Source of the DNA: Microcoleus sp.
GTDB taxonomy: Bacteria > Cyanobacteriota > Cyanobacteriia > Cyanobacteriales > Microcoleaceae
Reading direction: 5' to 3'
NCBI GenBank assembly: GCA_042408215.1
Contig: JAYFMW010000006.1
Location: forward strand, 640,001-704,000
Length of the DNA stretch: 64,000 nucleotides
Under the pieces are notes generated by a model. That model did not search any database. It was not told where the DNA came from and worked only from the letters and a program-made list of their open reading frames with translations. The translations under genes and the position numbers were made by a program. Position 1 is the stretch's first letter. The number at the start of each line of letters is the position of its first letter. This document shows, piece by piece, positions 18,088 to 36,562 of the stretch.

Positions 18088-21000
18088 CATTCAATTAGTT
18101 TCCCCAACGAGTGGGGAGTACACAGACGATCGAGAAATATCTAGACGAAGCACAATTTAAGTTTCCATTCAATTAGTTTCCCCAACGAGTGGGGAGTTAA
18201 GACTTACACTGACAAAGATGCTAGTCATTTAATGTTTCCATTCAATTAGTTTCCCCAACGAGTGGGGAGTTTCGATCGCGCTGAGCCATAGTCATCGCCA
18301 ACCGCAGTCCAGTTTCCATTCAATTAGTTTCCCCAACGAGTGGGGAGCAAAGATATGATTCGCTATTTAGTCAGCGATAGGCGGTTTCCATTCAATTAGT
18401 TTCCCCAACGAGTGGGGAGCGACAGAACAAATAAGAGTTCCCAATTTGCACAACAGAAAAGTTTCCATTCAATTAGTTTCCCCAACGAGTGGGGAGCAAG
18501 CACATAACAGCCAAGGTAGCGCCCATAGGGTTGTTTCCATTCAATTAGTTTCCCCAACGAGTGGGGAGCGTCACAAGAGCTCAAGGTTATGACAACCTCG
18601 ACCTAGTTTCCATTCAATTAGTTTCCCCAACGAGTGGGGAGTTGTGGTATGTAGAGGCGGTAGCTGGACGTACTCGCAATCAATAGTTTCCATTCAATTA
18701 GTTTCCCCAACGAGTGGGGAGTAGTTATCTACGGAGGTGTGGAATGGCACCCTCGTTTCCATTCAATTAGTTTCCCCAACGAGTGGGGAGATATCGTTGG
18801 AAAATCTGGAAGAACCACCAGAACCAGACGGCGACGAACTAGACGTTTCCATTCAATTAGTTTCCCCAACGAGTGGGGAGCGAATTGCAGCCAGAAATGC
18901 AACTTGGCCCAACTGCAGGCAATGGAGTTTCCATTCAATTAGTTTCCCCAACGAGTGGGGAGTTCTGTAACGGTGAAGAAGACTTATACGTAAAGGCTAC
19001 AAGAAGGGTTTCCATTCAATTAGTTTCCCCAACGAGTGGGGAGGGGCGGTATGTATTGTCAGGCCTAGGCTTCCTTACTGACCTTGGTTTCCATTCAATT
19101 AGTTTCCCCAACGAGTGGGGAGCTTCCGCAAAACCCAATTTCGATTAAACACCCTAATTAGCTCGTTTCCATTCAATTAGTTTCCCCAACGAGTGGGGAG
19201 AGCACATCAGCAACCCCCGTAACTTGGTATAGCAACAACTACTGGGTTTCCATTCAATTAGTTTCCCCAACGAGTGGGGAGTCAACATACGCAACGAGCA
19301 GGGTGCCAAGCAAACCTATGTCTGTTTCCATTCAATTAGTTTCCCCAACGAGTGGGGAGACGGCCGTAAGATACGCTGATTTGTTGCTTCAAAAAATTAC
19401 AGAAGTTTCCATTCAATTAGTTTCCCCAACGAGTGGGGAGTTTTAATCCTCCCGTTCTTGTATCCCGATTCAGGATGTTTCCATTCAATTAGTTTCCCCA
19501 ACGAGTGGGGAGCAAGAATGCGACGGACGCTGGTGGGCATGGCTAGACGGTGGCATGTTTCCATTCAATTAGTTTCCCCAACGAGTGGGGAGCGCTGTCT
19601 ATCGTGTACAAAAGCGTGTAAAGTATCTAGTTTCCATTCAATTAGTTTCCCCAACGAGTGGGGAGGAATGAAGGACCTGATGGTAAGAAGAAGGATGGTA
19701 CTGTTTCCATTCAATTAGTTTCCCCAACGAGTGGGGAGTTGAGGTCAGTATCCACCCCATTCAGAGGGGCGGTACGTTTCCATTCAATTAGTTTCCCCAA
19801 CGAGTGGGGAGCCCATAGCTTAGTGAAGGCCGGCCCCAGCGAAGGTAAGTTTCCATTCAATTAGTTTCCCCAACGAGTGGGGAGGGGTGGGTACCTCGCT
19901 CAAGCCCATGGGTGCTACGGTTTCCATTCAATTAGTTTCCCCAACGAGTGGGGAGGTTGGGTACATGTAAGACACCACACAAACCCATGGTGAGCAAGTT
20001 TCCATTCAATTAGTTTCCCCAACGAGTGGGGAGCCTTCTTCGAGTCCTTCACTATCGCCCTACAAAATAAGGGTGTTTCCATTCAATTAGTTTCCCCAAC
20101 GAGTGGGGAGGAGTCTACCAATACCTTCTATAGAAGCACCATACACAGTGGTTTCCATTCAATTAGTTTCCCCAACGAGTGGGGAGATGGTTATCTTCTG
20201 AGGTTGGACAACAAGTAGAGGCAATGGGTTTCCATTCAATTAGTTTCCCCAACGAGTGGGGAGTGCCCGTAAGTCCGTGTCTCGCCGTACTCAATCCATT
20301 GTTTCCATTCAATTAGTTTCCCCAACGAGTGGGGAGCGCGTCAATACCAGTAAATGTATGGTATACACCCCTTATGTTTCCATTCAATTAGTTTCCCCAA
20401 CGAGTGGGGAGCACTCAGCTATATAGCGCTGTCTTCAAAGCAGCAGGCTTAGGTTTCCATTCAATTAGTTTCCCCAACGAGTGGGGAGAAGGAGTACCGC
20501 ATCTATGGCCCTGGGGAAGAGATGGTAGGTTTCCATTCAATTAGTTTCCCCAACGAGTGGGGAGCCAATAATCAAACTATCAGCACCACCATGAACGGTT
20601 TCCATTCAATTAGTTTCCCCAACGAGTGGGGAGCCAACCCTGATGCTCAGTGCAGCAACCACTTTCCGTTTCCATTCAATTAGTTTCCCCAACGAGTGGG
20701 GAGCTTGGATCAGATATCCGTGCTCCTCGCCGAGGAAGTAAAGTTTCCATTCAATTAGTTTCCCCAACGAGTGGGGAGTGTACAAATCGAAGATAGTGAC
20801 AACAAGGAAGGTTTCCATTCAATTAGTTTCCCCAACGAGTGGGGAGGTATTAAGACTGCGTTAATGGGGGAAAAGATTGTCGCAATTAGTTTCCATTCAA
20901 TTAGTTTCCCCAACGAGTGGGGAGGGAATGAATTAAAAGCGCTAACCGCACCCGTAGAGCCAGAGCGTTTCCATTCAATTAGTTTCCCCAACGAGTGGGG

Positions 21001-22762
21001 AGTATAGGAAAGCTAATAAATGGTCCCTATGCAGTAGTACGTTTCCATTCAATTAGTTTCCCCAACGAGTGGGGAGAAGATGACGGCAAGGCGTGGTCAC
21101 ACAGCACATACGCGTTTCCATTCAATTAGTTTCCCCAACGAGTGGGGAGAAGGCAAACCCCCACACCTCTAGCAAAGACAAGGGGTCTAGTTTCCATTCA
21201 ATTAGTTTCCCCAACGAGTGGGGAGGGCGGCTGCATTGCATGGATTCAATAACGTGGCCTTTGTCATCGAGGTTTCCATTCAATTAGTTTCCCCAACGAG
21301 TGGGGAGAGAATACCGAAATAACGACCGACATCCTGATACTAAAATTTCCATTCAATTAGTTTCCCCAACGAGTGGGGAGCCTTGTTAGTTAATGGCGCC
21401 ATTGAAGGTACCCAAGTGTATTTCCATTCAATTAGTTTCCCCAACGAGTGGGGAGGGTAACATTACCCGATGTAAGGGTATTAGTGGGAGATCCATCTAC
21501 TGTGCCAAATTTCCATTCAATTAGTTTCCCCAACGAGTGGGGAGTAAGAAGGTAATCAACAACAACCTAATCCCTGCTGCTATTGCAAAATTTCCATTCA
21601 ATTAGTTTCCCCAACGAGTGGGGAGTCTATCAACCCTTCATTCATTGAGACAGTCTCCCTAATTTCCATTCAATTAGTTTCCCCAACGAGTGGGGAGATC
21701 AAAGTAATCAATCATCATGGCTAACATATTCAATTTCCATTCAATTAGTTTCCCCAACGAGTGGGGAGTTGGCTGCTTCATCTGCCACTAACTCCGCAGC
21801 TAAAGCAGCATTTCCATTCAATTAGTTTCCCCAACGAGTGGGGAGGTAATCAATGGGGTAACGGTGCACGCTATCTGTGCTGCTAAATTTCCATTCAATT
21901 AGTTTCCCCAACGAGTGGGGAGTGACCTATGCAGACCTAACTAAGGTGGACCACACTGAAATTTCCATTCAATTAGTTTCCCCAACGAGTGGGGAGTGTC
22001 TCCAAGGCACGCCGTTGTACTCAAGTCTCTGCCGTTAATTTCCATTCAATTAGTTTCCCCAACGAGTGGGGAGTCTACACCCTCCTCGATACCAGTGCGG
22101 TGGGATATAAGGAATGCGATTTCCATTCAATTAGTTTCCCCAACGAGTGGGGAGGTCCATCGCTAACTTCCTGACCCCCGTAATGAAAGAGGGAGAATTT
22201 CCATTCAATTAGTTTCCCCAACGAGTGGGGAGGATAACATCGTAGATAAAGCCGCCCGTAAGGCTGAAGCTAAATTTCCATTCAATTAGTTTCCCCAACG
22301 AGTGGGGAGGATAATACCCCTGTACCAGTATCACAGTGGCTCTGTGGTAATTTCCATTCAATTAGTTTCCCCAACGAGTGGGGAGAGCAAGAAGAACGAC
22401 ACATGTCAAAGCTCCAAGAGGAAATTTCCATTCAATTAGTTTCCCCAACGAGTGGGGAGTTAACTTGACAGCTCGTTAATCGCTGAGGAGTTTTTCGCAT
22501 TTCCATTCAATTAGTTTCCCCAACGAGTGGGGAGTCTTGTTTTTTGTTTGTGTCCGAGGTGTTACCCTCATACAAATTTCCATTCAATTAGTTTCCCCAA
22601 CGAGTGGGGAGCACAATTGGGTGAGAATATCTCGTACACTCCCGAATTTCCATTCAATTAGTTTCCCCAACGAGTGGGGAGCCTAGGGTGGTGCCATAAC
22701 GATCTACACGGCAACAACATAGTCATATTTCCATTCAATTAGTTTCCCCAACGAGTGGGGAG
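18088..22762 (-). CRISPR. CRISPR array 1: about 62 repeats / 61 spacers; repeat CTCCCCACTCGTTGGGGAAACTAATTGAATGGAAAC (minus strand)
   Basis: Repeats counted manually; spacers about 32-54 nt; leader next to cas2 at the right end; trailer repeat truncated at 18088. Confidence 0.99.
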
Positions 22763-22949
22763 TCCTCTACATTAAACCTCATACAGCGCAAGATGTCTAG
22801 AGGCCATTTGCGAGGACTCCCAAAAATCTCTGTACAAACACCCTCCCAACCAATGTTACTAATGCCTGAAACCCTTACAGGGCAGTATATCGAAGGCTCC
22901 GACGAACTTCCGCCATCACAGCCATTTCTTCCAGCCCTCGCGAGTGATA
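22763..22949 (-). promoter_or_regulatory. CRISPR leader of array 1
   Basis: Lies between the cas2 stop and the first repeat; near-identical copy flanks array 2. Confidence 0.9.
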
Positions 22950-23231
22950 TTAGATAATCACCGACCCCGGCAACTCCGTGACAGGCGGGCCCACCCCCCA
23001 AGTCTGAACATTGCCCAAAGTATGCCCCGACACAGGATAGAACCTAATACTGTCCTCATCTAAATTGATTAACTTTCGGAGTCGCCGCTGGAGTTCTGCA
23101 AACTTCGCAGTTGGCAGCACACACTCAAAGGTAGAATATTGCACCCACTTGCCGTAACCTTTGAGTAAGTCATGCACCTTTTGTCTGCGCTTGTCAACCG
23201 GAATATCGTAGACAACGATATAAAGCAGCAT
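22950..23231 (-). CDS. cas2: CRISPR-associated endoribonuclease Cas2
   Basis: YIVVYDIPVDKRR, WVQYSTFEC, DSIRFYP. Confidence 0.97.
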   Translation of the reverse strand: MLLYIVVYDIPVDKRRQKVHDLLKGYGKWVQYSTFECVLPTAKFAELQRRLRKLINLDEDSIRFYPVSGHTLGNVQTWGVGPPVTELPGSVII

Positions 23232-23234
23232 ACT

Positions 23235-24233
23235 TTATCGAATTTGATAAGGTTGATAAAGCTCAAGAGGATTGTATACAAACTGCTTGAAAGCTTTCAC
23301 CTGCTGGTTAAGCAAATCCCATTTAGGTTGAGTGTCCCCGGAATTATTAGTAAAACCCTCTTCCATCCGTCGCAGAAAAGCTGTCAAAAATTTCTGTCGC
23401 CCAGAATCATTGAGAAAACAGCCACTATTTCGGAAAACAAAATCTTGGTCAGCTTTCATCATGCCGTTATTGACAAGATAAAAAACCAAACTATCAATAA
23501 TCGGTGCCCGAAATTCCTCAATCAAATCCGAAGCCAAAGCCGCATGGCGTTCCGTTCCCTGATGCAAACAAGCCGAATAAGGATCGAGCCCTTGCAACTC
23601 AATCAAACTCAACAAATGATTCCAGAGAACTTGATAGCCAAAACTGAGCATAGAATTAACCGGATTACCCGGAGGGCGGCGCGACCTACCCACAAACACA
23701 AAATCAGGATTGCTCAAACACTCTTCAAAAGCCGAAAAATACTGAGCCGCCCCCGCACCTTCCATCCCCATCAACTTCTCAATAGTTTCAGCCTCCCCAG
23801 CTTTTTTGATTAAATGTTCCAAACAGTTAATTGCAAAAGCAATGACATCAGAAGCTTGTCGGCGCTGCTGTCGCATGAGGATCACCCTGCTGTTTTTCAG
23901 CTTAGCCTGCACAATGCGTCTGGCTACTTGCAAACGTTCAGCAAAACACAACTGTTGCTGATAGCGAGAGAGTTGTCTGTAGCCCCGTTCGATAGGAAGA
24001 ATCCGCCCGTAACAGTAACCCATGCGGGAAAGATAAGCAATGGGAATATTCCGCCACAGACAAGTTCTAATTGCTTGAGTTGTGACTTGAGACTTACCAA
24101 AAATCAGCAGTTGTTCAAGCAAAGGAAGCTGTATTTCACCCAGCACAGATTCGCCTTTTTTGATAACCAACATTTCTTGGTGCAAGGAAACGTAACAACC
24201 AGGTTGAGAAACATAAACGGTACGCATAAGCAA
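23235..24233 (-). CDS. cas1: CRISPR integrase Cas1 (no RT fusion)
   Basis: MGMEGAGAAQYF, RSRRPPGNPVNSMLSFGY, ALASDLIEEFRAPIID. Confidence 0.98.
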   Translation of the reverse strand: MLMRTVYVSQPGCYVSLHQEMLVIKKGESVLGEIQLPLLEQLLIFGKSQVTTQAIRTCLWRNIPIAYLSRMGYCYGRILPIERGYRQLSRYQQQLCFAERLQVARRIVQAKLKNSRVILMRQQRRQASDVIAFAINCLEHLIKKAGEAETIEKLMGMEGAGAAQYFSAFEECLSNPDFVFVGRSRRPPGNPVNSMLSFGYQVLWNHLLSLIELQGLDPYSACLHQGTERHAALASDLIEEFRAPIIDSLVFYLVNNGMMKADQDFVFRNSGCFLNDSGRQKFLTAFLRRMEEGFTNNSGDTQPKWDLLNQQVKAFKQFVYNPLELYQPYQIR

Positions 24234-24999: not shown

Positions 25000-26496
25000 T
25001 TATTTTTGCAGTTCGTAACGGGCGATCGCGTTCACCAATTCATCATGTACTTTCGCCATCAAACTAGCTGATTTTAACGAAACAAAGTTTTGCTTTGAAA
25101 CGAAATTTAAACAGCCCAAAACTCGCGATTCCCACTTTTCTTTACTATCTGTATTCCAAGCTTGGAATACATCTTTTCCCTCCAAACCATGCAAAGAATG
25201 AAAAGTCAAATTTCTTTCACCTATGGTATCGCCAGCAACTATTTGAATGTGAGGGTTTTGATTCCATTTATCTCGGTCAGATGCTTCAAGTAAAGTAAAT
25301 AGTGCTTTACCAAATAAGCCCACATTATTGTAATCGCGATTTTTATTTGCATTAAACCAATACCGTAAATTCTGAGGCAAATTTACATCATGGATATATG
25401 CTGTACTTGGTTGCTTGGCATTAGAGTATTTAATTTGTGGCTTATACTTGTATAATGCCCATTCTTTAATCAATCCTTCCACAGCCCGAAAACTGTGAAA
25501 TAGTGCCTCAACAGTGTTGTCTTGTTTTAAACGAATCACGCCTAAATAAGCAGCCTCATAACCCATCCACCACCACTCATTCAAACGCTCTTCTGCAACT
25601 TCTCCCCTAGCCTTACCAAAATCTTCAAACTTAGCAAAATTCCACTGTACCGCCATTCCTAACAAATCGCGAATTTCCACCAATAACGGATCTACAGAAT
25701 CTTTCCAGTAAGGTTTTAAAATGAGTTCAACTCCCTGGTAGTCATAGCGCTTTAATAACGCTTTCGCCTCTTGGACTAGCATCCCCTGCAAATAAGTAGA
25801 GCTTTCTATAAAATCACCCTTCTCTGCTAACTTTTCTTCATACTCATTGCTCACCAAAAACTTGACTTTATTACCAAACTTTGCTAAGCAATCAAATTGA
25901 ACAGCCGAAGAAATAGCTGGAGTTCCCGCCTGATGGCTAACATAGACATTTGCACTTTTATCAAACTCTAAACTAGACAAAGCTTGCTGAACCAGAAACA
26001 GTGCTTTATTCCAATTATCTAATCCCTCATTTTGGGATTTTGGTTTCAATTCTAAGTAATCAATTGATTTAACTTTAGGAAATTTTCTCTCAAAATATTT
26101 CTCAAATATCGGCTGAAGAGTGCAAGTATCCTGCCAATAGGGACTTTTTTCTATCCTCCTGTCTTGCTCATCAAAAACTGCTTCCTGATTAGTCAAAATC
26201 ACGATGATTCTGTCAGGATTTGTTCTGCCTTGTTCTAGCAGCTTGGCAGAAAAAGCATCCAACAGCGGAAAGTGCAAATCCTCATAATATTCATCTGTCA
26301 ACTGCGTTCCATAAACCATCCCCATCGCTCTCGCTGGTACGATAAAAGGTTCGCTATCATCAGTATTAGGCGGTTTTGTAGGTGCAAAACGGCGATCGTA
26401 TAATTGACTTCTCACCTTTCTAAACAAAGTCCCCCAATTGTCATCAGTTTTGAGCTTGACATCGCTGTTACCAGTAGTCACAATCCAGATATTCAT
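25000..26496 (-). CDS. Putative CARF-HEPN type III effector (Csm6/Csx1-like)
   Basis: Rossmann-like N-terminus (IVTTGNSD; VYVSHQAGTPAIS); C-terminal RNLTFH fits the HEPN RX4H motif. Confidence 0.7.
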   Translation of the reverse strand: MNIWIVTTGNSDVKLKTDDNWGTLFRKVRSQLYDRRFAPTKPPNTDDSEPFIVPARAMGMVYGTQLTDEYYEDLHFPLLDAFSAKLLEQGRTNPDRIIVILTNQEAVFDEQDRRIEKSPYWQDTCTLQPIFEKYFERKFPKVKSIDYLELKPKSQNEGLDNWNKALFLVQQALSSLEFDKSANVYVSHQAGTPAISSAVQFDCLAKFGNKVKFLVSNEYEEKLAEKGDFIESSTYLQGMLVQEAKALLKRYDYQGVELILKPYWKDSVDPLLVEIRDLLGMAVQWNFAKFEDFGKARGEVAEERLNEWWWMGYEAAYLGVIRLKQDNTVEALFHSFRAVEGLIKEWALYKYKPQIKYSNAKQPSTAYIHDVNLPQNLRYWFNANKNRDYNNVGLFGKALFTLLEASDRDKWNQNPHIQIVAGDTIGERNLTFHSLHGLEGKDVFQAWNTDSKEKWESRVLGCLNFVSKQNFVSLKSASLMAKVHDELVNAIARYELQK

Positions 26497-26498
26497 AA

Positions 26499-28250
26499 TT
26501 ATTCCTCAGTTGGCCAAAGTTTGATAAAGTCGCTCTGATTCTGTAAAAACTCAAGAAAATTCTGAGTTGTGTCCGAGTCATCAGGAAAAATCGTCAAAAG
26601 TTCTACATACTCTTGCCTTTTTTGTTTCAATTCTCCGGTTCTAAGTTTGAGATAGCGGGGATACATCCGATGCCAAATGCGACCAATATTATTGAGTTTT
26701 CCAGTCAAATCAGTTTGCTTAATAAACTGATTTTTTGAGTAGTGACCGTGAAACCAATTAATTGCTTCGCTGCTATTCTTATCCTCAGCAATTCTTCCCC
26801 AGACTTCCACTTTTTCTGGATGCCAGACTTCGCGCCAAGTAGTAGCATGATGACTCAGTTCTACATGATTAACTGTTAACCATTCTATTGCTCTCTGCTG
26901 ACCCTCTGCCAAAAATTTAGCAATATTTCTGAGGTCATCACTAGCAGCCGTGACGTACAAATCCTTTGAACTTTCATTAAACTTCCAGTGACAGCCGATC
27001 GCGGGTTTGTCATTTCTGTTAAAATACTCTGGGAAAAACAGGCTGTGATCGACTCGCCGCCACGATTTGCCAAAACCGCCGAGTAAGAGAGAAAATTTAA
27101 TTAAGTAAGTGACAAACTTTTTTAACTCCTTCTGGGGATAGGTATTATTCAGGCATAGCAAATCTAACTTGCCAGCTTGCAAGTCGTAGGTTGGCATCAC
27201 TACAACTTTGTTGCCGTTAGGCTTATATCTGTGTTCGCCAAAATCGAGTTCCTCAGCGGTAAAATTAATCCCCAACTGCCCGATAATTGCCCCTGTATCA
27301 TCGCGTCTTTCACCAATTCCTCCCCAAAGTTTCTTCGTTAACAGTTGCGCTGTATTAACATCCGTGACCCCAGCCAACAACCGTAAAGTATGACCCCGCA
27401 GGGCAGCTTTAAACATATTTGGTCGAAATTCTGGGGTTCTATTCAGCAGTTGGGACGTTAACCCGCAGCCGCTCAAATTGACAGAAAGTAAGATGCGATC
27501 GGCACTTTTTACCTCTGCCATGCGGCCGTAGCCTGCACTTACCCTAGAACCAATTCCGTGCCCTAAAGCTTGTTCCCAAATTTGCCAAATCTCCTCCCAT
27601 TCTTGTTTTCCAAGCTGCTTGTTGCTGGAAATGCCAAATTGTAATTGACACTGATAAAGCGAAATTTGCACGTTAGCACTGGTGACAGCATTTTCCATCA
27701 CTTGGCGTTTTTGTTGCGAGTGAACGACATCGACTAAACGCTCTTTTTCTGCCCAAGACATATCAGCAGGAAAGCCGCCGTGAAAGCGCAAAATTCCGGG
27801 TCTTGCACTACGCTGTCCGTCCTCTACAACCTCTCCTCCGCAGTATTCTTCTCGCTTTTGAGGAGGACACGATCGCCAGAAAGCGCCTTTCATGCTAGAA
27901 CCCGGATAAAATGGCAAACCTTTCGCACCAATTACGGGTCGAATTACGTCTTCATCTTGTCCGCTATTTGTAACCAAACGCCAGCTAATTGTGTATTGTT
28001 TTGTTTCCACTCCCCGGCCGAATTCAGGCATTTTCACGGGTGATTTAGTTCGGCCTCGCTGCCAGAGGGGAACGCTTTCATCATTGCTTTCGGGGACGGG
28101 AGGACAGGATTTTAACCACTGTTTCACCCAATCAGAAGCCGGGCCAGCATCGCCTGCATACTGAATTTTTCCTCTTCCAGCTAACTGTGCTTGAAACATC
28201 AAAGGAACGCGATCGCTATCACTCATCTTCTTCACCTCCATTATTGCCAT
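26499..28250 (-). CDS. cmr6: RAMP protein, Cmr6/Cmr1-type fusion
   Basis: PFYPGSSMKGAF, GIGSRVSAGYG; second RAMP FKAALRGH...LGGFGKSWRR. Confidence 0.85.
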   Translation of the reverse strand: MAIMEVKKMSDSDRVPLMFQAQLAGRGKIQYAGDAGPASDWVKQWLKSCPPVPESNDESVPLWQRGRTKSPVKMPEFGRGVETKQYTISWRLVTNSGQDEDVIRPVIGAKGLPFYPGSSMKGAFWRSCPPQKREEYCGGEVVEDGQRSARPGILRFHGGFPADMSWAEKERLVDVVHSQQKRQVMENAVTSANVQISLYQCQLQFGISSNKQLGKQEWEEIWQIWEQALGHGIGSRVSAGYGRMAEVKSADRILLSVNLSGCGLTSQLLNRTPEFRPNMFKAALRGHTLRLLAGVTDVNTAQLLTKKLWGGIGERRDDTGAIIGQLGINFTAEELDFGEHRYKPNGNKVVVMPTYDLQAGKLDLLCLNNTYPQKELKKFVTYLIKFSLLLGGFGKSWRRVDHSLFFPEYFNRNDKPAIGCHWKFNESSKDLYVTAASDDLRNIAKFLAEGQQRAIEWLTVNHVELSHHATTWREVWHPEKVEVWGRIAEDKNSSEAINWFHGHYSKNQFIKQTDLTGKLNNIGRIWHRMYPRYLKLRTGELKQKRQEYVELLTIFPDDSDTTQNFLEFLQNQSDFIKLWPTEE

Positions 28251-28647
28251 TATTCTTAGTAGGTTTATAACGCTGAGTCCACCAAACCATACTGTCGCAA
28301 AGTTGAGTTAGCACAGCTATAGCTACTTTGCGCTGTTCTACGGGAAAATCCCACAATTTATTTGCCATGATTTTAATGGCTGCTGTATCGTCAGGACTAA
28401 CATTATCGTTGGGAATTTTAACGCCAGCATTTGCCATAATTTTAACTAACGCCTTCCAAGTATCCCGCCAATAATCAGCTTGATCTTTGTCCTTGACTAA
28501 CCGAAACTGTTCTCCCCAAAATCGCTCTAAACCATAAGCAACCGAAACACGCATTTTGTATGCTTGATTAGGAGCATCTTTTTTGTCGCGGTATTTGATA
28601 ACTAAATCGTGAGCCTCTTGGTCTAATTTGTAAGATTCCCAAGCCAT
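28219..28647 (-). CDS. cmr5: Small subunit Cmr5 (Cas11)
   Basis: 142 aa helical protein between cmr4 and cmr6; AYGLERFWGE. Confidence 0.75.
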   Translation of the reverse strand: MAWESYKLDQEAHDLVIKYRDKKDAPNQAYKMRVSVAYGLERFWGEQFRLVKDKDQADYWRDTWKALVKIMANAGVKIPNDNVSPDDTAAIKIMANKLWDFPVEQRKVAIAVLTQLCDSMVWWTQRYKPTKNNGNNGGEEDE

Positions 28648-28650
28648 AAA

Positions 28651-29484
28651 TTATACCTCCTTTAAGGTTAGATAGCAGTGACCGAAACCTATTGATTCTA
28701 AACCGCCGAGATAAATGTCTGCACCACTAGCAGCACCAAAAGGTTGCCATGTCTCTTGGTTGTCTTTGAGGGCGATCGGAAATACTAAAATTGTGCCTTC
28801 TGGCAAAGCTTCAGTATTAAAAAAAGCTCCTTTTTTCGCCTTTTTTTCCTCTTTGTCTAAGGCTACTCGACTCTGGCGATATAAAGCCATATCGTGAATC
28901 ATGGCAATTTCATCATCAGCAACAACAACGGCTGGCAATTCCTCTCCTAAAGGAAACCAAACAGACAAATCCTGAGTTTTCTCAACTGTCAAAAAGCCAA
29001 AGTTAAAAAATAGCTTTGGTTTGCCATTTATGTCGAGAGCTTTTAAGGTTTGAGAACCTGTATAATTAGCGGGAATTTTTGCAGTATTGAGTAACTTACC
29101 ATCCTTTAGCTTGACAGAATCTCCAGCAATTCGCTGATAGCGTTTGAGCAAACGAGGACAAGTTACCCAGACAATTGGTTGACCGGGACAAAACACTGGC
29201 AACCATAGCAGCGAAGCATATTCAAACTTAACTACAGACTCCGTGGTACTGTCTGGTTTTCCTAATTCTGCTTCCTGACCGTACCATTTATTGGCTTCAG
29301 TTTCTCCCAGACTGCGGCGGATTTCCGATCGCAATCTCCCGCGAATCGAACTGCCGGGAATAATGCCAGTTTGGGTAAACTGGTCGCGGAAAATTAAGTT
29401 TAAGTTTCCGCTTTCTTCACCAGCCGTTGCTCCCACATGAACAGGAGCAAGGGTTTCAATAATACCGTAAGCTTTTTTGTACAT
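28651..29484 (-). CDS. cmr4: Cmr4 (Cas7-family backbone)
   Basis: LAPVHVGA, IPGSSIRGRLR, FNTEALPEGT, LGGLESIGFG. Confidence 0.92.
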   Translation of the reverse strand: MYKKAYGIIETLAPVHVGATAGEESGNLNLIFRDQFTQTGIIPGSSIRGRLRSEIRRSLGETEANKWYGQEAELGKPDSTTESVVKFEYASLLWLPVFCPGQPIVWVTCPRLLKRYQRIAGDSVKLKDGKLLNTAKIPANYTGSQTLKALDINGKPKLFFNFGFLTVEKTQDLSVWFPLGEELPAVVVADDEIAMIHDMALYRQSRVALDKEEKKAKKGAFFNTEALPEGTILVFPIALKDNQETWQPFGAASGADIYLGGLESIGFGHCYLTLKEV

Positions 29485-30479
29485 TATTCAACTCCTTGAA
29501 TTTCAATGGGTAAACACAAACCGCATCCAACTTGTTTCAGGCTAAAACCTTCTTTGGGAAACCAATCTTCAGGGAATTCCCACCAAGTTTTATCTAAAGG
29601 TTCTCTGAGAAGATAGACAGTTCCAGGCGAAACTGCATAGCGTCCCCGTCCCATTTGTCCTTTCGCGCGGTAGCGATAGGAAATGGGTTTATCTGTGAGC
29701 ATTTCCGGTCGTTTTTTCGAGAAATCTTCATTTTTGGGATAGCGGAATGAAAATTTTTTAGATCCCCAAATTCCCGGCGTAATTAAAGCAAAAGAACGCT
29801 GAATTGGTTGGCGTAAAAGTTTGGCGATCGGGCTGTTATCATCCAGTGGAAGACTCTTTATTTCAACCAAATGATTTTCGCCACCAAAGCGATACCAACC
29901 ATCTGCTAAAGGATGAGTTGAGAGATAAACCAGACAACATTCATCATCCATCTGCACGGAATTTTCCAGAAACAAACCATCTTCTGCTAAAGTGCAGCGT
30001 TCGTCATCTTTTGTTTTGGGATGCAAGATAGGGACGTATGTCCAAGGAGTATCAGCTGCATCGCCATTTTTCTTAATGGCAGCAGTCTTATTTCCCCAAG
30101 AATTAACGGTTTGCCAGCGATAATCTGGGTCTACATCATCAGATTCCCGATGCCACTTTCCTGTTTGTCTTTTCCATTCATCCACTCCTTTTTGAGAAAT
30201 AATTTTGTGCCAAGGAATGGGGACGTAAAAGTATTCAGGATCGTCTGATTTTGCCCAAAATGGACCAGCGACAAATAGGTTATATCTGAGTTCTTCTTGA
30301 GAAGTATAAGACCTAACTTTGTTGGCGCTGAAAAATAGACCGGAGAGAGTAGCGGCTTCTGGAGGGAATTTTGCCCCAGAACGTCCGACCAGATTTTCTG
30401 GCGATAAAAATCCGCCTGAACTGCCGTACATAAATCCTAAAGGACTTATAGTGATGAGATATTTGAACATAGCTGCCAT
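29484..30479 (-). CDS. cmr3: Cmr3 (Cas5-family)
   Basis: FPPEAATLSG, RFGGENH, ALITPGIW, AVSPGTVY, VGCG. Confidence 0.88.
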   Translation of the reverse strand: MAAMFKYLITISPLGFMYGSSGGFLSPENLVGRSGAKFPPEAATLSGLFFSANKVRSYTSQEELRYNLFVAGPFWAKSDDPEYFYVPIPWHKIISQKGVDEWKRQTGKWHRESDDVDPDYRWQTVNSWGNKTAAIKKNGDAADTPWTYVPILHPKTKDDERCTLAEDGLFLENSVQMDDECCLVYLSTHPLADGWYRFGGENHLVEIKSLPLDDNSPIAKLLRQPIQRSFALITPGIWGSKKFSFRYPKNEDFSKKRPEMLTDKPISYRYRAKGQMGRGRYAVSPGTVYLLREPLDKTWWEFPEDWFPKEGFSLKQVGCGLCLPIEIQGVE

Positions 30480-32062
30480 CCCACATTTATTAGGTCACTA
30501 ATCCAGTAAATAAGTTCATTAGTTGGTTCATTTGGAAAATCTCCAACGATATGCTTGCAGTTTTGTTCCAAATGCTCTCTGTCATTAAAGTAAAGTTGAA
30601 AAATAGTTAAAGCCAATCGGTCATCTGGCCTTTTTTCCTTGGGATTAAAGCTGATAGCATGACGATTTTTAAGATGAGCTAAATCGTTGTAAACATGAGT
30701 CCAATTAGGGAAAAGTTTTTTATCTTTCCCTTCTGATTCCCATTTACTATAGGTTTTACCATCGCGATCGCGATACCTCTTCAAAATATCTAGATAATCC
30801 CAAGGGCAAGTCCACTGCACAAATTGACCGCTGTTAAAGACTACTCGAATTGTGACTCTATTTCGCCCCAAACTTTTCGCCCGTTTTTCCGCTTCTCGAC
30901 AGTGTTGAAGAATATCTCGCTGCGGTACACTGTGACCAGCCCAAACAAAACCTACACTTAAATTAATATCCTGTCCGTGCTTTTTCCATTCATCGGACAA
31001 TTTCATTAACCATTCTAATGCCTCTATAGGTTCCGGCGGCTTTTCGGGCTTGGTACTGTAAATTACGCCGAGGAAATCGTCACCGCCTGCATAAACAACT
31101 CGCCCTAGGTCTTTGGGGAAATTCTTGATAAATTTACCGCCCCAATTCCGCATGGCTTCGCTGAAGTTTTTTAAACCTTCATCTCCTTTTTCTTTAGCAA
31201 TTTCCTGAAGTTTTTTGCCAACTTTATCACCATCTCCCATAAACCAGCCAGTCCAGTGTTCTGGTTCACGAATAATGTCGCTAAATGCTGATTCAAGCGG
31301 AGATATCCCAATGTTTCTGGCAATATCTTCGTCACGAGTTACCAATCGCTTAACTAACTCAGGAATGCTCAATCTTTCATTAGGTGCGAGAAATTTTCCT
31401 TCGGGTTTGCCATCTGGGGGAAGATTCTCTAAAACACAGGAGAGACGCTGATAGAAATCCTTAAGTTCAGCTTTTTCTGGATCGGATAGTTGCCGCCCTG
31501 GATTTGAATGTTCCAAACCTAAACCCGGCCAGGCGATCGCATCGGTGCCGGTCAAACTCGAACTGTCGCCAATCCAATTAATCGCCGTCCAATCGCGACG
31601 CAATTTGCGAGTCTCTAAATTCTTCATCGCACACTCTATGCAATCTCCGTGCCCCCAAAATATTTCCCAAGTGTACAAACCCCATCGCATCCACTCTTGC
31701 TGCCAAAAGTATTGCTCTTTAGGAGGTACTTCTCGTTCTATCCAAACTCGACATTCATTTAATATTTCTTGCCATGATTTCTGAAGGGTGTTCGTCACAT
31801 CATTCCTGGAAAATTCCCCTTCCCCTTTCAGAAGTATCCGATTGGGCATTCCTTTCTGGATGTTGGGGGAACCGGGAGAAATGACATTGAAACCTGATTT
31901 TTCGGCTTGCTTGACTAGCTTGTAACTCAGATAAGACAGAATTAGTGAAGCCCCAAATAAATCTCTGAGTTTACGAGATTTTTCAATAAAACCCTGGACG
32001 GGTGCAAAGGCGATCGCAGTATATGCAGACATAGATTCAATTTTAAAGCGGGCAGAGCCCAC
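30446..32062 (-). CDS. cas10: Cas10/Cmr2, short form lacking the HD nuclease (start likely 32032)
   Basis: PVQGFIEKSRKLRDLFGASLILS, MGDGDKVG, VVYAGGDDFLG. Confidence 0.95.
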   Translation of the reverse strand: MGSARFKIESMSAYTAIAFAPVQGFIEKSRKLRDLFGASLILSYLSYKLVKQAEKSGFNVISPGSPNIQKGMPNRILLKGEGEFSRNDVTNTLQKSWQEILNECRVWIEREVPPKEQYFWQQEWMRWGLYTWEIFWGHGDCIECAMKNLETRKLRRDWTAINWIGDSSSLTGTDAIAWPGLGLEHSNPGRQLSDPEKAELKDFYQRLSCVLENLPPDGKPEGKFLAPNERLSIPELVKRLVTRDEDIARNIGISPLESAFSDIIREPEHWTGWFMGDGDKVGKKLQEIAKEKGDEGLKNFSEAMRNWGGKFIKNFPKDLGRVVYAGGDDFLGVIYSTKPEKPPEPIEALEWLMKLSDEWKKHGQDINLSVGFVWAGHSVPQRDILQHCREAEKRAKSLGRNRVTIRVVFNSGQFVQWTCPWDYLDILKRYRDRDGKTYSKWESEGKDKKLFPNWTHVYNDLAHLKNRHAISFNPKEKRPDDRLALTIFQLYFNDREHLEQNCKHIVGDFPNEPTNELIYWISDLINVGWQLCSNISSL

Positions 32063-32283: not shown

Positions 32284-33462
32284 ATGGCAAAAAAACCAAC
32301 CCCTCACCCCTACGCCGATCGACTAACGTTCGATCGCATAATGCTCCTAATTGCCACATTAGTAAACCATCCCGGAATCGGACACTCCGACACCGAAACA
32401 TCCGACAGTAAATATCACGACGCTTTACTAGAAGTCAAATCTCAATTACAGAAAATTGCCGCCGAATTCAACATCGAATTCCCCGAAAACTATCCCGCAA
32501 CTCCCACAATTCGCAAAGACTTAGAAACTTTGCGCCACTACGGAATCCTCGACAAAAGAATGTATCGCTTCGGATATTATCTCGGTACCGGCGCAATGAC
32601 TCGCGAAGAACTACTTTTCGCATTTCAAGCAATAGCATCTCAAGCTAAATATCAAGGAAATCCCCAAGCCCGCAAAATTTGTGAAAAACTCACTAAACTG
32701 TTGCGCGGATTAGATATCGAACTCAAAGGCCAATTGTTTTATCCGGTTCGCGAACACCTGAATCGTGCGATTATTTACACCGATCCTGTCGAAATGCTCG
32801 ATCGCCAAGAATATCGGAATACCCTATTTCACAAATTAGAAACCGTAGAAACAGCCATAGTTCGAGGCCAGGCGATCGAACTTTACCGCGAAAAAGATTA
32901 TTATGGTAAAGGCAATGTCGGTTTCCGGCGAATCTGGCCTCTGCAACTGATTTATCACGATATCGCCTGGTACCTGATTTGCGAAAATTGCGAAAACGGA
33001 CATTTGACCGTAGAACGGGTGAATCGCTTTACCGACTACTGCGAAATTATCGATCCAGAGGGGCGTGGTTTAGCCCTACAGGAACAAAGTTTGAAAATAG
33101 CCCAAAAGTTGTTAAAAAACGGCTGGGGGCTGTTTTTGGGCAATCCAGAGCAACAGCAGGCAGAATTGGAAGGTACGCTGAAGTTGCAAAAAGTGAAGGT
33201 GCGATTTTTTCAGAAGGTAGTTGGATTTATTCTAGAGGGCGATCGGCGACATCCGCGACAAAAGATTAACGAAGGCCCAAAGGATAGTTTTGGCAATCTG
33301 CTATATGTGGATTATCAGATAGATTTGCCCGATCGCTCTTTGAACGAATTTAGTCTATGGGTTAACAAATATATGGAAAACGCCCAAGTGCTTTCCCCGC
33401 CGAGTTTGGTGGAAAAACACCGACAAGCAGCGAGAGATTTGTGCGATCGATATAGCTTGTAA
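32284..33462 (+). CDS. wHTH-WYL-WCX transcriptional regulator
   Basis: TIRKDLETLRHYG (HTH), IWPLQLIYHDIAWYL...ERVNRF, AQVLSPPSLVE. Confidence 0.93.
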   Translation: MAKKPTPHPYADRLTFDRIMLLIATLVNHPGIGHSDTETSDSKYHDALLEVKSQLQKIAAEFNIEFPENYPATPTIRKDLETLRHYGILDKRMYRFGYYLGTGAMTREELLFAFQAIASQAKYQGNPQARKICEKLTKLLRGLDIELKGQLFYPVREHLNRAIIYTDPVEMLDRQEYRNTLFHKLETVETAIVRGQAIELYREKDYYGKGNVGFRRIWPLQLIYHDIAWYLICENCENGHLTVERVNRFTDYCEIIDPEGRGLALQEQSLKIAQKLLKNGWGLFLGNPEQQQAELEGTLKLQKVKVRFFQKVVGFILEGDRRHPRQKINEGPKDSFGNLLYVDYQIDLPDRSLNEFSLWVNKYMENAQVLSPPSLVEKHRQAARDLCDRYSL

Positions 33463-33469
33463 ATTCTCC

Positions 33470-33655
33470 TAGGGGCGGGTTTCATCAATCATGGTTCGAC
33501 TACGCTCACCAACCATAAAAGCTTAAAACCAACCATCTCAAAAACCCGCCCCCACCGGGCGAAAAAATCACCATCCAAATTCCCCAAATTATCCTAGGGC
33601 GGGTTACACAAACCATCTACGTCAGAAACCAACAACATAATAAACCCGCCCCCAC
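33470..33655. repeat. REP-like palindromes (TAGGGGCGGGTTT...AAACCCGCCCC), two copies
   Basis: Family recurs at about 24481, 48725, 59423-59700 and 63614-63768. Confidence 0.8.
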
Positions 33656-33676
33656 ATACTGAGAATTGTTATATTT

Positions 33677-33701
33677 AGCCCCGATTATGGGGCTTTTTTT
33701 T
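33677..33701 (+). terminator. Intrinsic terminator downstream of WYL
   Basis: AGCCCC-gattat-GGGGCT followed by a T-run. Confidence 0.75.
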
Positions 33702-33840
33702 GTGCTTGTTAATTCTTCGCAACTAGGATTGGTTGCAGAAATTTGAGTTGTAAAAGTTGGTCTTTGGAGTTTTCCAGAGGTTGAAAAGTTAGAGCTTTTG
33801 GCACAAAAGAAGGCTCTGATTTTTTAATTTCTGTTTGCGG

Positions 33841-34034
33841 TGTCGGGGGGATCGAAGCCTCCTTCGATTCCGCATTAATAGAAGACTTCGAAAAGCTTTG
33901 TCTTAGCTATGTATTTCTAGCAAGTGACAAGCTAACTTGCTAGACAGTGCCGTAACCCTTCGGCTGGGGGATAGGACGATGCCTTAAAGACGTTTACTCT
34001 ATGCGGTAGAGGCGTCCCCTAAAGGCATCCCCCC
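33841..34034 (-). ncRNA. Putative structured ncRNA of about 190 nt, family not recognised
   Basis: Promoter immediately upstream, multiple hairpins, complementary ends, no ORF of 60 aa or more. Confidence 0.6.
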
Positions 34035-34040
34035 AAAATT

Positions 34041-34069
34041 AGACTACTAGAAATCTAGTCTTTTGTCAA
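34041..34069 (-). promoter_or_regulatory. sigma70-type promoter TTGACA-N17-TAGTCT with an internal palindrome
   Basis: -35 at 34064-34069, -10 at 34041-34046; ACTAG-ATTT-CTAGT overlaps the spacer. Confidence 0.75.
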
Positions 34070-34134
34070 GAGCTATTTATGGTTGCTCTTAAACTGTCGC
34101 ATTAATAGAAGACTTCCACTAATTTTGTTTTAGC

Positions 34135-36267
<2,133 letters not shown>

Positions 36268-36454
36268 TCCTCTACATTAAACCTCATACAGCGCAAGATG
36301 TCTAGAGGCCATTTGCGAGGACTCCCAAAAATCTCTGTACAAACACCCTCCCAACCTATGTTACTAACACCTGAAACCCTTACAGGGCAGTATATCGAAG
36401 GCTCCGACGAACTTCGGTCATCACAGCCATTTCTTTCAGCCCTCGCGAGTGATA
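36268..36454 (-). promoter_or_regulatory. CRISPR leader of array 2 (copy of 22763-22949)
   Basis: Colinear, about 6 substitutions in 187 bp. Confidence 0.92.
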
Positions 36455-36562
36455 TTAGATAATCACCGACCCCGGCAACTCCGTGACAGGCGGGCCCACC
36501 CCCCAAGTCTGGACATTACCCAAAGTATGCCCCGACACAGGATAGAACCTGATGCTACTCAT
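36455..36562 (-). pseudogene. cas2: cas2 3' fragment / 35-aa mini-ORF
   Basis: MSSIRFYPVSGHTLGNVQTWGVGPPVTELPGSVII*; the last 33 aa are identical to the Cas2 C-terminus. Confidence 0.88.

What the first reader, a model, noticed from the sequence alone, without database searches (positions are those of the whole stretch)
33841..34092. Unrecognised ~190-nt structured ncRNA with its own promoter inside the type III-Bv locus
Seen (minus strand): TTGACA-N17-TAGTCT, with the expected +1 falling on GGGGGG at 34034, which can pair with CCCCCC at 33850-33845. Enclosed helices: AUGCCUU/AAGGCAU extended by GGGGACG/CGUCUUU and CUCUA/UAGAG; GCCG/CGGC; a 10-bp UCUAGCAAGU/ACUUGCUAGA; AAGAC/GUCUU; and AUCGAAG/CUUCGAU stacked on the closing stem, followed by GACA. 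The G-U pairs work only on this strand. The promoter is overlapped by palindromes (ACTAG-ATTT-CTAGT; AAGAGC-N11-GCTCTT). I recognise no RNA family. Inference: a dedicated CRISPR-linked RNA, for example a CreTA-like toxin/antitoxin RNA, a WYL ligand or regulated target, or a decoy/substrate for the HEPN effector.
Basis: partly seen in the sequence, partly recalled or inferred. Interest (0 to 1): 0.85.

Follow-up and report, generated by a model that had tools for sequence, protein, structure and literature searches.

The report
Small RNA gene embedded in CRISPR array
A conserved, apparently self-transcribed structured small RNA gene sits right after the last repeat of a cyanobacterial type III CRISPR array, and the array's final spacer is a co-evolving copy of part of that RNA, an arrangement I could not find described before.

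Summary
The arrays are transcribed on the minus strand, so the element lies at the trailer end of array B. A promoter (TTGACA-N17-TAGTCT, or TAATAT in relatives) is kept in 23 of 25 homologs. It is followed by about 250 nt ending in a hairpin plus U run.

Homologs occur in five families of one cyanobacterial order. Each sits directly after a CRISPR repeat of the III-Bv type, sometimes a lone repeat with its own leader promoter. Compensatory changes support helices P1, P4 and P5.

The 37-nt terminal spacer S is repeated inside the RNA as S', the 5' strand of the 13-bp helix P4. S and S' stay alike within genomes while diverging between them.

There is no Rfam match, the element is single-copy, and it is more conserved than neighbouring synonymous sites. 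Its function is unknown. My best guess is a CRISPR-linked regulatory RNA paired with a dedicated crRNA. A strict CreTA mechanism is not supported.

The parts
34135..36267 (-). CRISPR array B: 28 repeats, transcribed on the minus strand from 36267 down to 34135. The last repeat R is at 34135-34170.
   Evidence: Repeat search. Orientation from the leader duplicate.
36268..36545 (-). Leader of array B. It is a near-identical copy of the cas2 3' end plus the leader of array A (22763-23050). This fixes the array polarity.
34098..34134 (-). S: the 37-nt terminal spacer-like segment directly after the last repeat, upstream of the sRNA promoter.
   Evidence: It follows a repeat in all 15 loci examined.
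34041..34069 (-). Promoter: -35 TTGACA (34069-34064), a 17-nt spacer, -10 TAGTCT (34046-34041). The expected start is about 34034.
   Evidence: Conserved in 23 of 25 rows, and also in G188, G283, G231 and G216. The transcription start is inferred, not observed.
34020..34034 (-). Lineage-specific 15-nt insertion (the G run plus AUGCC...).
   Evidence: Absent in 10 of 25 rows, including all distant lineages.
33986..34019 (-). P1 (34019-34013 pairs with 33992-33986). It encloses hairpin P1b (34011-33997) with the invariant loop CCGCA.
   Evidence: 3 of 7 P1 pairs show changes on both sides, and 97.6% of cells are paired.
33950..33970 (-). P2 region: conserved CCCCCAGCC-GAAG-GGUUACGG with a small tetraloop-type hairpin.
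33916..33944 (-). 10-bp hairpin found only in the window's sublineage. Other lineages have a 7-bp GAAA-tetraloop hairpin (P3) here.
33871..33907 (-). S': an internal copy of S, 31 of 37 identical in the window. Its core is the 5' strand of P4.
33851..33892 (-). P4: a 13-bp helix (33892-33880 pairs with 33863-33851) closing a 16-nt loop (33879-33864) that holds the invariant AAUGCGGAA.
   Evidence: MFE fold, RNAalifold, pair counts: 98.3% of cells paired, 4 pairs changed on both sides, 7 on one side.
33784..33817 (-). P5: a terminator-like hairpin plus a short U run. This is the probable 3' end of the sRNA.
   Evidence: G216 and G103 carry longer stems and runs of 6-7 U.
33725..33783 (-). Conserved tail. 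In other genomes it runs up to a downstream repeat R'. In the window R' is missing.
32284..33462 (+). WYL-domain gene, convergent with the element. Its terminator is at 33677-33694 (+).
25000..32062 (-). cmr operon (Cmr2/Cas10 at 30446-32062, plus RAMP genes), followed by cas1, cas2, a leader and array A.

Best explanation
It is a member of an undescribed family of small RNA genes that live inside CRISPR arrays of the Cas6-less type III-Bv kind.

The conserved module, read on the minus strand, is:
- a repeat R;
- the 37-nt spacer S;
- a sigma-70-type promoter;
- a structured RNA of about 250 nt (P1, P2, a variable hairpin, the 13-bp helix P4 whose 5' strand S' copies S, a single-stranded stretch, and the terminator hairpin P5);
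- a tail of about 57 nt;
- in many genomes, a second repeat R'.

The whole unit therefore fills the oldest 'spacer' slot of the array, and new spacers pile up between it and the leader.

Shown here:
- the position of the element;
- conservation of the promoter and terminator;
- covariation in P1, P4 and P5;
- concerted evolution of S and S';
- conservation above that of neighbouring synonymous sites;
- restriction to one cyanobacterial order among the genomes searched.

Inferred:
- The array or leader promoter makes a dedicated crRNA carrying S, and the internal promoter makes the sRNA carrying S'.
- I think the two form a guide/cognate pair that ties the sRNA to the type III complex. The crRNA has the same sense as the sRNA and so cannot attack it. 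It would recognise RNA antisense to S', or compete with S' for the P4 arm.
- I put about 0.25 on that specific mechanism. I put about 0.8 on the element being a real, selected, transcribed RNA gene.
For: Array polarity: the leader of array B duplicates the cas2 3' end plus the leader of array A.

Distribution:
- Single copy in the own genome.
- BLAST homologs in 22 of 143 other genomes of the family.
- The covariance model adds G188, G283, G231 and G216 from three further families, and G290, G291 and G292.
- No hit outside the order in a draw of 150 genomes from the phylum.
- 32 copies in 30 loci in all.
- S follows a repeat in 15 of 15 loci examined.
- 7 loci have a lone repeat, and 6 of them have a scan-flagged -10-like box ending 1-7 nt upstream of it. 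In G155 this lies in a recognisable array leader.

Promoter: conserved in 23 of 25 rows and in the distant loci.

Structure:
- On the MAFFT alignment, 92.6% of cells are paired. 8 pairs change on both sides, against 2.0 +/- 1.0 in shuffles (0 of 500 reach it) and 0-4 in slid controls.
- On the model-fitted alignment, 12 pairs change on both sides, against 3.2 +/- 1.3 in shuffles (0 of 500) and 3-5 in slid controls. P4 is 98.3% paired.
- G-U pairs fit only the minus strand.

S and S': within-genome identity is 0.89 against 0.73 across genomes. None of 20000 random pairings reaches the observed value.

Selection: the element is 95% and 89.5% identical between the window and G025 and G135. Synonymous-type third positions of the flanking HK and WYL genes are only 71-77% identical.

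Link to the cas genes: Cmr2 was found in 17 of 23 element-bearing genomes, against 37 of 121 genomes without the element.

Expression: metatranscriptome contigs of relatives cover 33459-34164. In run X2 that contig has depth 122, against 13.5 for the WYL contig and 25 for an array contig. This is a weak hint only.
Against: - No transcript end, strand or start was observed. The RNA runs are contigs bounded by repeats and may hold DNA.
- The -10 box in the window is weak and fell below the scan tool's threshold.
- The plus strand folds nearly as well.
- Covariation rests on few independent lineages, about 8. Most Microcoleus rows are 86-96% identical, and alignment A6 is fitted to the model.
- Six element-bearing genomes show no Cmr2 with this query, so dependence on the III-Bv effector is not shown.
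- S pairs with the sRNA no better than shuffled S does.
- S drifts at positions that break pairing with the arm in L025, L007b and L021. The arm therefore tracks S', and gene conversion alone could keep S like S'.
- No target of S exists elsewhere in the genome.
- Patchy distribution together with high identity could partly reflect recent horizontal transfer rather than selection.
Confidence: 0.55

Rival explanations
1. A cis-acting array element rather than a trans-acting RNA. On this view it is an internal promoter and leader that drives a downstream array or repeat R', combined with termination or insulation of the upstream array. The folded RNA would be only a 5' leader or a set of processing signals, for example for RNase E or RNase J.
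For: - A repeat-like sequence in the same orientation lies downstream in 17 of 32 copies, and 49-61 nt after the model hit in 5 of them.
- In several Microcoleus genomes a real second array follows.
- The tail up to R' is conserved.
- In III-Bv systems, processing depends on a stem-loop followed by an AU-rich stretch (PMC12464536, passages read).
Against: - A conserved hairpin plus U run stands between the RNA and R'.
- 15 of 32 copies, the window among them, have no downstream repeat, or only a single degenerate repeat follows.
- Compensatory changes in P1 and P4 point to a selected fold.
Confidence: 0.2
2. A CreTA-like addiction module adapted to type III. The sRNA would be a toxin, for instance one that sequesters tRNA through an Arg-codon-rich mini-ORF. 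The terminal crRNA S would guide the Cmr complex to silence it.
For: - The layout of repeat, spacer and adjacent RNA gene with a spacer-matching segment recalls creA/creT (PMC8501985, abstract and passages read).
- An invariant AUG in the P4 loop is followed in the window by CGG, CGA, AGG, AGG and CGA codons (read).
- A stable stem-loop is present.
Against: - No Cas3 core above the cut-off and no Cas6 (PF01881) in a 99.98% complete genome, so no DNA-binding Cascade is available.
- S has the same sense as the sRNA. Its only complement is the 13-nt arm, and that pairing is no better than with shuffled S.
- There is no Shine-Dalgarno sequence before the AUG.
- The frame and the tandem rare codons are not kept in L022, L003, L004 or G103 (read).
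- The element, with an intact promoter, persists in G103, where no Cmr2 was found.
Confidence: 0.08
3. A relic without function of its own: decayed repeat-spacer units, or the scar of a small insertion or duplication at the array end. On this view it looks conserved only because the array cassette spread recently by horizontal transfer, and gene conversion between the direct repeats keeps S like S'.
For: - Patchy distribution: 23 of 144, 5 of 19, 1 of 52 and 1 of 2 genomes per family.
- Tandem second copies in G034 and G135, and a second locus on another contig in G120.
- For type III systems, mini-arrays near arrays were judged to be degraded repeats without targets (preprint 10.1101/2023.03.03.530964, passages read).
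Against: - The promoter, the terminator and the helices are kept by compensatory changes across five families, down to about 50-bit similarity to the model.
- The direct repeats S and S' should promote deletion of the promoter and the 5' domain, yet no such deletion form was seen in the 32 copies.
- Identity exceeds that of neighbouring synonymous sites.
Confidence: 0.1
4. One reading: a closed RNA of about 190 nt whose ends pair through GGGGGG/CCCCCC, with the listed internal helices.
For: It can be drawn in the window and resembles the MFE fold. 91.9% of cells are paired on the alignment.
Against: - The 5' strand of the closing stem is missing in 10 of 25 rows.
- One closing-stem pair is broken in 8 of the 15 rows that have it.
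- The 10-bp hairpin is confined to one sublineage.
- Conservation and the terminator extend about 60 nt beyond the proposed 3' end.
Confidence: 0.05

Closest known systems
CreTA / CreR / crRNA-like regulatory mini-arrays (types I, V-A)
   Same: A repeat plus a conserved spacer next to an RNA gene or promoter that carries a matching sequence. The guide and its match co-vary between lineages. The module is physically part of a CRISPR locus.
   Different: - Here the effector is type III (RNA-targeting), and no Cas3 or Cas6 was found.
- The match is same-sense and lies inside the RNA as one strand of a helix, not in a promoter.
- The match is near-complete, not limited to a seed.
- No conserved toxin mini-ORF is present.
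- The published survey I read found no conserved or targeted mini-arrays in type III loci.
Synechocystis CRISPR3 (type III-Bv), with crRNA maturation by RNase E and RNase J
   Same: The repeat architecture is the same: a 5' stem-loop followed by an AU-rich single strand ending in GAAAC-like sequence. The genome has no Cas6. The locus has a short Cmr2 and a WYL-type neighbour gene.
   Different: The passages I read (PMC12464536) report no array-embedded sRNA gene for that system. I could not examine the Synechocystis array itself. A distant BLAST search of the plasmid collection found nothing.
CRISPR leader
   Same: A conserved non-coding sequence of several hundred nt that abuts a repeat and holds a promoter.
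   Different: It lies at the trailer end. The true leader is a different sequence at the other end of the array. The element's promoter fires away from the array it abuts.
tracrRNA / anti-repeat RNAs
   Same: A separately transcribed RNA encoded beside an array. The window's sRNA has an 8-nt complement to the repeat stem.
   Different: The complementarity is short. It does not follow the repeat changes in G188, G144 and G149 (read). This is not a type II or type V system.

Membership tests
CreTA (CreT toxin RNA + CreA guide) | A DNA-binding type I (or V-A) effector that the guide directs to the toxin promoter | tested here: not met
   No Cas3 core above the cut-off and no Cas6 (PF01881) in the own genome, which is 99.98% complete. 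The locus is cmr.
CreTA (CreT toxin RNA + CreA guide) | The guide spacer is partially complementary to the toxin promoter | tested here: not met
   S matches S' at about +127 to +163 inside the transcript, not the promoter. The match is 31/37 to about 39/41 and same-sense.
CreTA (CreT toxin RNA + CreA guide) | A strong Shine-Dalgarno sequence, a start codon, two consecutive rare codons and a stable stem-loop (PMC8501985) | tested here: not met
   An AUG and AGG AGG exist in the window, but no Shine-Dalgarno sequence precedes the AUG. The frame and the tandem codons are not kept in L022, G103, L003 or L004. A stem-loop is present.
crRNA-like regulatory mini-array (CreR/crlRNA type) | A stand-alone repeat plus a conserved spacer with its own promoter | tested here: met
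   7 loci have a lone repeat. In 6 of them the scan flags a -10-like box ending 1-7 nt upstream of the repeat. S is conserved and follows the repeat in 15 of 15 loci.
crRNA-like regulatory mini-array (CreR/crlRNA type) | The spacer has a cognate target near or in the locus that co-varies with it | tested here: inconclusive
   S and S' co-vary, but they are same-sense. For a type III effector only an antisense RNA would be a target, and none was shown.
Known Rfam RNA family | A covariance-model match at the gathering score | tested here: not met
   0 matches in the whole window. Within the element there was nothing at E up to 10.
MITE / multicopy repeat | Many dispersed copies per genome | tested here: not met
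   1 copy in the own genome. Relatives hold 1-2 copies, always at arrays.
CRISPR leader | Lies upstream of the first repeat, on the side where new spacers are added | tested here: not met
   The leader, with the cas2 3' end, is at 36268-36545 on the other side of array B.
tracrRNA-like anti-repeat RNA | Extended complementarity to the repeat that follows repeat changes | tested here: not met
   Only 8 nt in the window. The sRNA motif stays the same in G188 although its repeat stem differs.
Type III-Bv locus (context) | cmr genes without Cas6, and a repeat with a 5' stem-loop plus an AU-rich 3' half | tested here: met
   Pfam hits to Cmr2 and RAMPs. No Cas6. The repeat form was read and compared with the description in PMC12464536. 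The subtype label itself is taken from that comparison, not from a classifier.

The most novel reading that the evidence does not exclude
A type III counterpart of the crRNA-like guide/target regulatory circuits (CreTA, CreR, crlRNA). On this reading a dedicated, always-present terminal crRNA (S) and an array-embedded sRNA carrying the same 37 nt (S') form a self-referential pair that works at the RNA level.

Possible modes of action:
- The Cmr-S complex watches for RNA antisense to S'. Such RNA would have non-self flanks, so it could trigger Cas10 signalling.
- The Cmr-S complex competes with S' for the P4 arm and switches the sRNA between two folds.

Either way the state of the sRNA would be tied to the presence of active type III complexes. 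The module would also be the seed from which these arrays grow.
Probability: 0.2. Interest if true: 0.9.

Novelty: new variant of a known kind. Interest (0 to 1): 0.72.

Why it matters
Regulatory or addictive RNAs tied to CRISPR (tracrRNA, scaRNA, CreA/CreT, CreR, crlRNAs) are known for types I, II and V. For type III, the survey I read concluded that nearby mini-arrays are just decay products.

A conserved RNA gene that occupies the oldest spacer slot of type III-Bv arrays, with a co-evolving copy of itself as the terminal spacer, would give type III systems their first candidate built-in riboregulator. It would also give a handle on how Cas6-less arrays are organised, terminated or supervised.

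It can be tested directly in culturable Microcoleus and Oscillatoria-type strains by Northern blot, dRNA-seq and Cmr pull-down. Even if the function proves modest, it is a new, taxonomically restricted structured RNA family with defined boundaries and a covariance model.

Tried and rejected
- Rfam at gathering and at E up to 10: nothing in the element.
- A degenerate 17-nt pattern scan of genome contigs gave almost only chance hits. Just 3 fetched loci matched the element by BLAST (L067, L085, L133). Of these, L085 and L133 duplicate loci already held (L024, L005), and L067 (Phorm 6) is a window-like copy at 94.5% identity. The scan did give the genus name Microcoleus.
- BLAST against the plasmid and phage collections: no match.
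- Earlier notes of this scan: nothing, in 3 look-ups.
- A search for a second target of S or S' in the own genome found only chance matches of 17 nt or less.
- Duplex prediction of S against the sRNA: no better than shuffled S.
- Duplex prediction of the sRNA against the cmr2, WYL and cas1 upstream regions and the leader: energies within the shuffled range, and full-length duplexes that mean nothing (one search timed out).
- Coding reading: no ORF of 40 aa or more in 33489-34224, and the mini-ORF from the loop AUG is not kept in frame.
- Anti-repeat (tracrRNA-like) reading: rejected, because the sRNA motif does not follow the repeat changes.
- A scan for a conserved plus-strand promoter found only a weak box confined to Microcoleus.
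- RNA runs: only contigs were available. They cover the element but show no ends or strand. Parts without cover carry no weight.
- One fuzzy-regex script timed out. The question was answered by the repeat finder instead.
- Literature: "III-Bv CRISPR", CreTA terms, "CRISPR, trailer, small RNA, cyanobacteri, type III" (0 papers), and crRNA-like/type III/mini-array terms. None describes such an element. Subscription papers, such as the original RNase E study cited in PMC12464536, were not seen.

Full report
**What is at the coordinates.**
- TTGACA at 34069-34064, 17 nt, then TAGTCT at 34046-34041;
- a G run at 34034-34029;
- a C run at 33850-33845, followed by GACA.

The 194-nt stretch folds at -70.1 kcal/mol, z -3.83, with 0 of 200 shuffles as good. 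The plus strand does nearly as well, z -3.54. Rfam gives nothing in the window at gathering score, and nothing inside the element at E up to 10. No ORF of 40 aa or more lies between 33489 and 34224.

**Where it lies.**
- The window holds two arrays with one repeat family: array A (18161-22762, 61 repeats) and array B (34135-36267, 28 repeats).
- Between them lie cas2, cas1 (23235-24233), a cmr operon (25000-32062, with Cmr2 at 30446-32062) and a divergent WYL gene (32284-33462).
- Beyond array B lies a hybrid histidine kinase gene.
- The sequence next to array B at 36268-36545 is a near-identical copy of the cas2 3' end plus the leader of array A.
- Both arrays are therefore read on the minus strand, and the element sits at the trailer end of array B, directly after its last repeat.
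- The own genome has no Cas6 (PF01881) and no Cas3 core above the cut-off.
- The repeat has a 5' stem-loop followed by an AU-rich half. This matches the Cas6-less III-Bv system of Synechocystis, which is matured by RNase E and RNase J (PMC12464536, passages read).

**Relatives.**
- The element is single-copy in its genome.
- BLAST finds it in 10 of 36 genomes of the same genus and in 0 of 24 genomes from other families of the order in a first draw.
- In the whole family it is in 22 of 143 other genomes: 19 of 78 in the own genus, 3 of 12 in a second genus, and 0 of 53 in the remaining 13 genera.
- One record title names the genus as Microcoleus.
- I built a covariance model of the 3' domain (R1). 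It finds further copies in G188, G283, G231 and G216, which belong to three other families, and in G290, G291 and G292.
- Two hits at 31 bits are doubtful.
- Nothing more turned up in the families of G188 (1 of 2) and G216 (1 of 52).
- A draw of 150 genomes from the phylum gave nothing outside the order.
- There are 32 copies in 30 loci in all.
- The plasmid and phage collections have no match.

**The conserved module.** In every lineage looked at, the order is the same:
- a CRISPR repeat R;
- a spacer-length segment S;
- a TTGACA promoter with a 17-18-nt spacer and a -10 box of TAGTCT, TAATAT, TAATCT, TAGACT or TACTCT;
- a 5' domain;
- a hairpin;
- a copy of S, called S';
- a loop;
- an arm complementary to the core of S';
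- a single-stranded stretch with CCGCAAA;
- a hairpin followed by a U run;
- a conserved tail.

A repeat-like sequence R' in the same orientation follows in 17 of 32 copies. In G144, G283, G231, G290 and G291 it begins only 49-61 nt after the model hit. The unit thus fills a 'spacer' position between two repeats.

In 7 loci the upstream repeat is alone. In 6 of them the scan flags a -10-like box ending 1-7 nt before the repeat, and in G155 the box lies in a recognisable copy of the array leader. Since new spacers enter at the leader, the module looks like the oldest slot of these arrays. It may be their seed.

In the window and in G008, R' is missing and the convergent WYL gene follows. In G025 and G135 the order is kinase, WYL, cmr operon, array, element.

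**Promoter and ends.** The promoter sits at the same alignment position in 23 of 25 rows, and the distant loci keep it. The tool's stricter scan did not list it in the window. The hairpin plus U run (33817-33784) is weak in the window, with 4 U. It is longer in G103 (7 U) and G216 (10-bp stem, 6 U). I infer an RNA of about 250 nt running from about 34034 to about 33787. It could run on to R' where R' exists. Neither end has been observed.

**Structure.** RNAalifold on a MAFFT alignment of 24 rows predicts the following:
- P1 (34019-34013 pairing with 33992-33986), which encloses a hairpin with an invariant CCGCA loop;
- a small P2;
- a 13-bp helix P4 (33892-33880 pairing with 33863-33851), which is also part of the MFE fold of the window;
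- P5.

Pair counts on the MAFFT alignment A4:
- 92.6% of cells are paired.
- 8 pairs change on both sides, against 2.0 +/- 1.0 in shuffles (0 of 500 reach it) and 0-4 when the partners are slid.

Pair counts on the model-fitted alignment of 32 copies, which leans towards the model:
- 12 pairs change on both sides, against 3.2 +/- 1.3 in shuffles (0 of 500) and 3-5 when slid.
- P4 is 98.3% paired, with 4 pairs changed on both sides and 7 on one side.

G103 is out of register by one column in A4. Read by hand, it keeps 12 of 13 P4 pairs, with two more double changes. P1 also shows double changes in G144, G149, G283 and G188. Conserved G-U pairs in P1 and P4 fit only the minus strand.

- The closing stem has letters in only 15 of 25 rows, because its 5' strand lies in a 15-nt insertion. 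One of its pairs is broken in 8 of those 15.
- The 10-bp hairpin is confined to the window's sublineage. Elsewhere a 7-bp GAAA-tetraloop hairpin stands in its place.
- AAGAC/GUCUU and AUCGAAG/CUUCGAU exclude P4. They may be an alternative fold.

The support rests on about eight independent lineages, so it is moderate rather than overwhelming.

**The spacer copy.** The 37 nt after the last repeat (S, 34134-34098) recur at 33907-33871 (S'), with 31 of 37 identical, including a 19-nt exact run. Chance expectation for the 19-mer is 0.01 matches. The similarity starts exactly at the repeat/spacer border and has spacer length.

Across 11 lineages:
- S and S' are on average 0.89 identical within a genome but 0.73 across genomes.
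- The within-genome pair is the best in 8 of 11 rows and 9 of 11 columns.
- No random pairing out of 20000 reaches the observed mean.

An old duplication followed by independent drift would not give this pattern, so the two copies evolve in concert. The P4 arm compensates for changes in S' in G188, G283/G231, G216 and G103.

S itself is less constrained. It carries G where S' has C at core position 3 in Microcoleus, G144 and G188. In L025, L007b and L021 it has changes that would break pairing with the arm. Predicted S:sRNA duplexes are no better than with shuffled S. S has no other match in the genome. Because S and S' are same-sense, a crRNA carrying S cannot pair with S'. It could pair only with RNA antisense to S', or with the 13-nt arm.

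**Selection and expression.**
- Between the window and G025 and G135, the roughly 395-nt element is 95% and 89.5% identical. Third positions of conserved four-fold-type codons in the flanking kinase and WYL genes are only 71-77% identical.
- In G135 the Cmr proteins are only 38-61% identical to the window's.
- Cmr2 homologs occur in 17 of 23 element-bearing genomes and in 37 of 121 others in the family. Related genomes are not independent.
- Six carriers, including the complete G103, show none with this query.
- Metatranscriptome contigs from four studies cover 33459-34164 of close relatives. They are bounded by repeats, give no strand or ends, and may contain DNA.
- In run X2 the contig over the element has depth 122, against 13.5 (WYL) and 25 (array). 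I take this as a weak hint only.

**What it most likely is.** I conclude, with about 0.8 confidence, that this is a real, selected, separately transcribed RNA gene of a new family bound to III-Bv-type arrays.

How it works is inferred. The constant company of R-S, the concerted evolution of S and S', and the placement of S' in the central helix suggest that a dedicated terminal crRNA and the sRNA form a functional pair that links the sRNA to the type III complex. I give that about 0.25.

Rivals:
- A cis-acting internal promoter or leader and terminator for a downstream array (0.2).
- A relic kept similar by horizontal transfer and gene conversion (0.1).
- A CreTA-like toxin/antitoxin (0.08).

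The CreTA reading fails on four defining features:
- no DNA-binding effector is present;
- the match is not in a promoter;
- there is no Shine-Dalgarno sequence;
- the tandem rare codons are not conserved.

These features are taken from PMC8501985, abstract and passages read.

**Novelty.** My searches found no description of such an element. A survey of repeat-like elements reported that type III mini-arrays show no conserved position and no targets (preprint 10.1101/2023.03.03.530964, passages read). Papers outside the held library, and all supplements, were not seen.

Noticed in passing
window 17700-18130 (minus strand): Array A ends in a truncated repeat. At least six tandem units of about 61 nt follow, each with a terminator-like hairpin and a U run. 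This is a different kind of array trailer from that of array B.
   Followed up: no
window 36268-36545 versus 22763-23050: The leader of array B carries a copy of the last ~80 nt of cas2 together with the array A leader. Array B therefore arose by duplication of a cas2'-leader-array cassette, inserted between the kinase and WYL genes, which are adjacent in G025 and G135.
   Followed up: partly
window 18161-22762: Array A has two blocks of repeat variants. On the plus strand, 42 repeats begin with G and the 19 on the leader side begin with A. This fits a mutation in the leader-proximal repeat being copied into new units.
   Followed up: no
window 33500-33660, and relatives' loci (L005, L011): Small dispersed inverted repeats of the form GGGGCGGG...CCCGCCCC lie downstream of the element. 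They are inserted at varying places in relatives and look like MITE-type filler.
   Followed up: no
own genome C30:155245-156885 (outside the window): A second, diverged Cmr2-like gene, 46-48% identical and matched in two pieces. It suggests another type III locus in the genome.
   Followed up: no
L007/L012 (G034), L020/L026 (G135), L018 and L025 (G120): G034 and G135 carry two tandem copies of the element about 560 nt apart, one of the window type and one of an older-looking type. G120 has two arrays on different contigs, each with its own copy.
   Followed up: partly
window 34047-34063 and homologs: The spacer between the -35 and -10 boxes (AAAAGA.TAGATTTC...) is unusually conserved across families. 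This hints at an operator overlapping the promoter.
   Followed up: partly
window 34002-34006, 33870-33875, 33836-33840: The invariant loop motif CCGCA(U) in P1b, and a second CCGCA in the single-stranded stretch, are both complementary to the invariant (A)UGCGG in the P4 loop. A kissing contact or an alternative helix is possible. Because none of these positions vary, this cannot be tested by covariation.
   Followed up: no
L024 (G103, Microcoleus sp. GLPB): An orphan copy with a single repeat. No array or cmr genes lie within 20 kb, and no Cmr2 was found in the complete genome. Its 5' domain is internally duplicated (units of about 124 nt), and S equals S' over 20 nt.
   Followed up: partly
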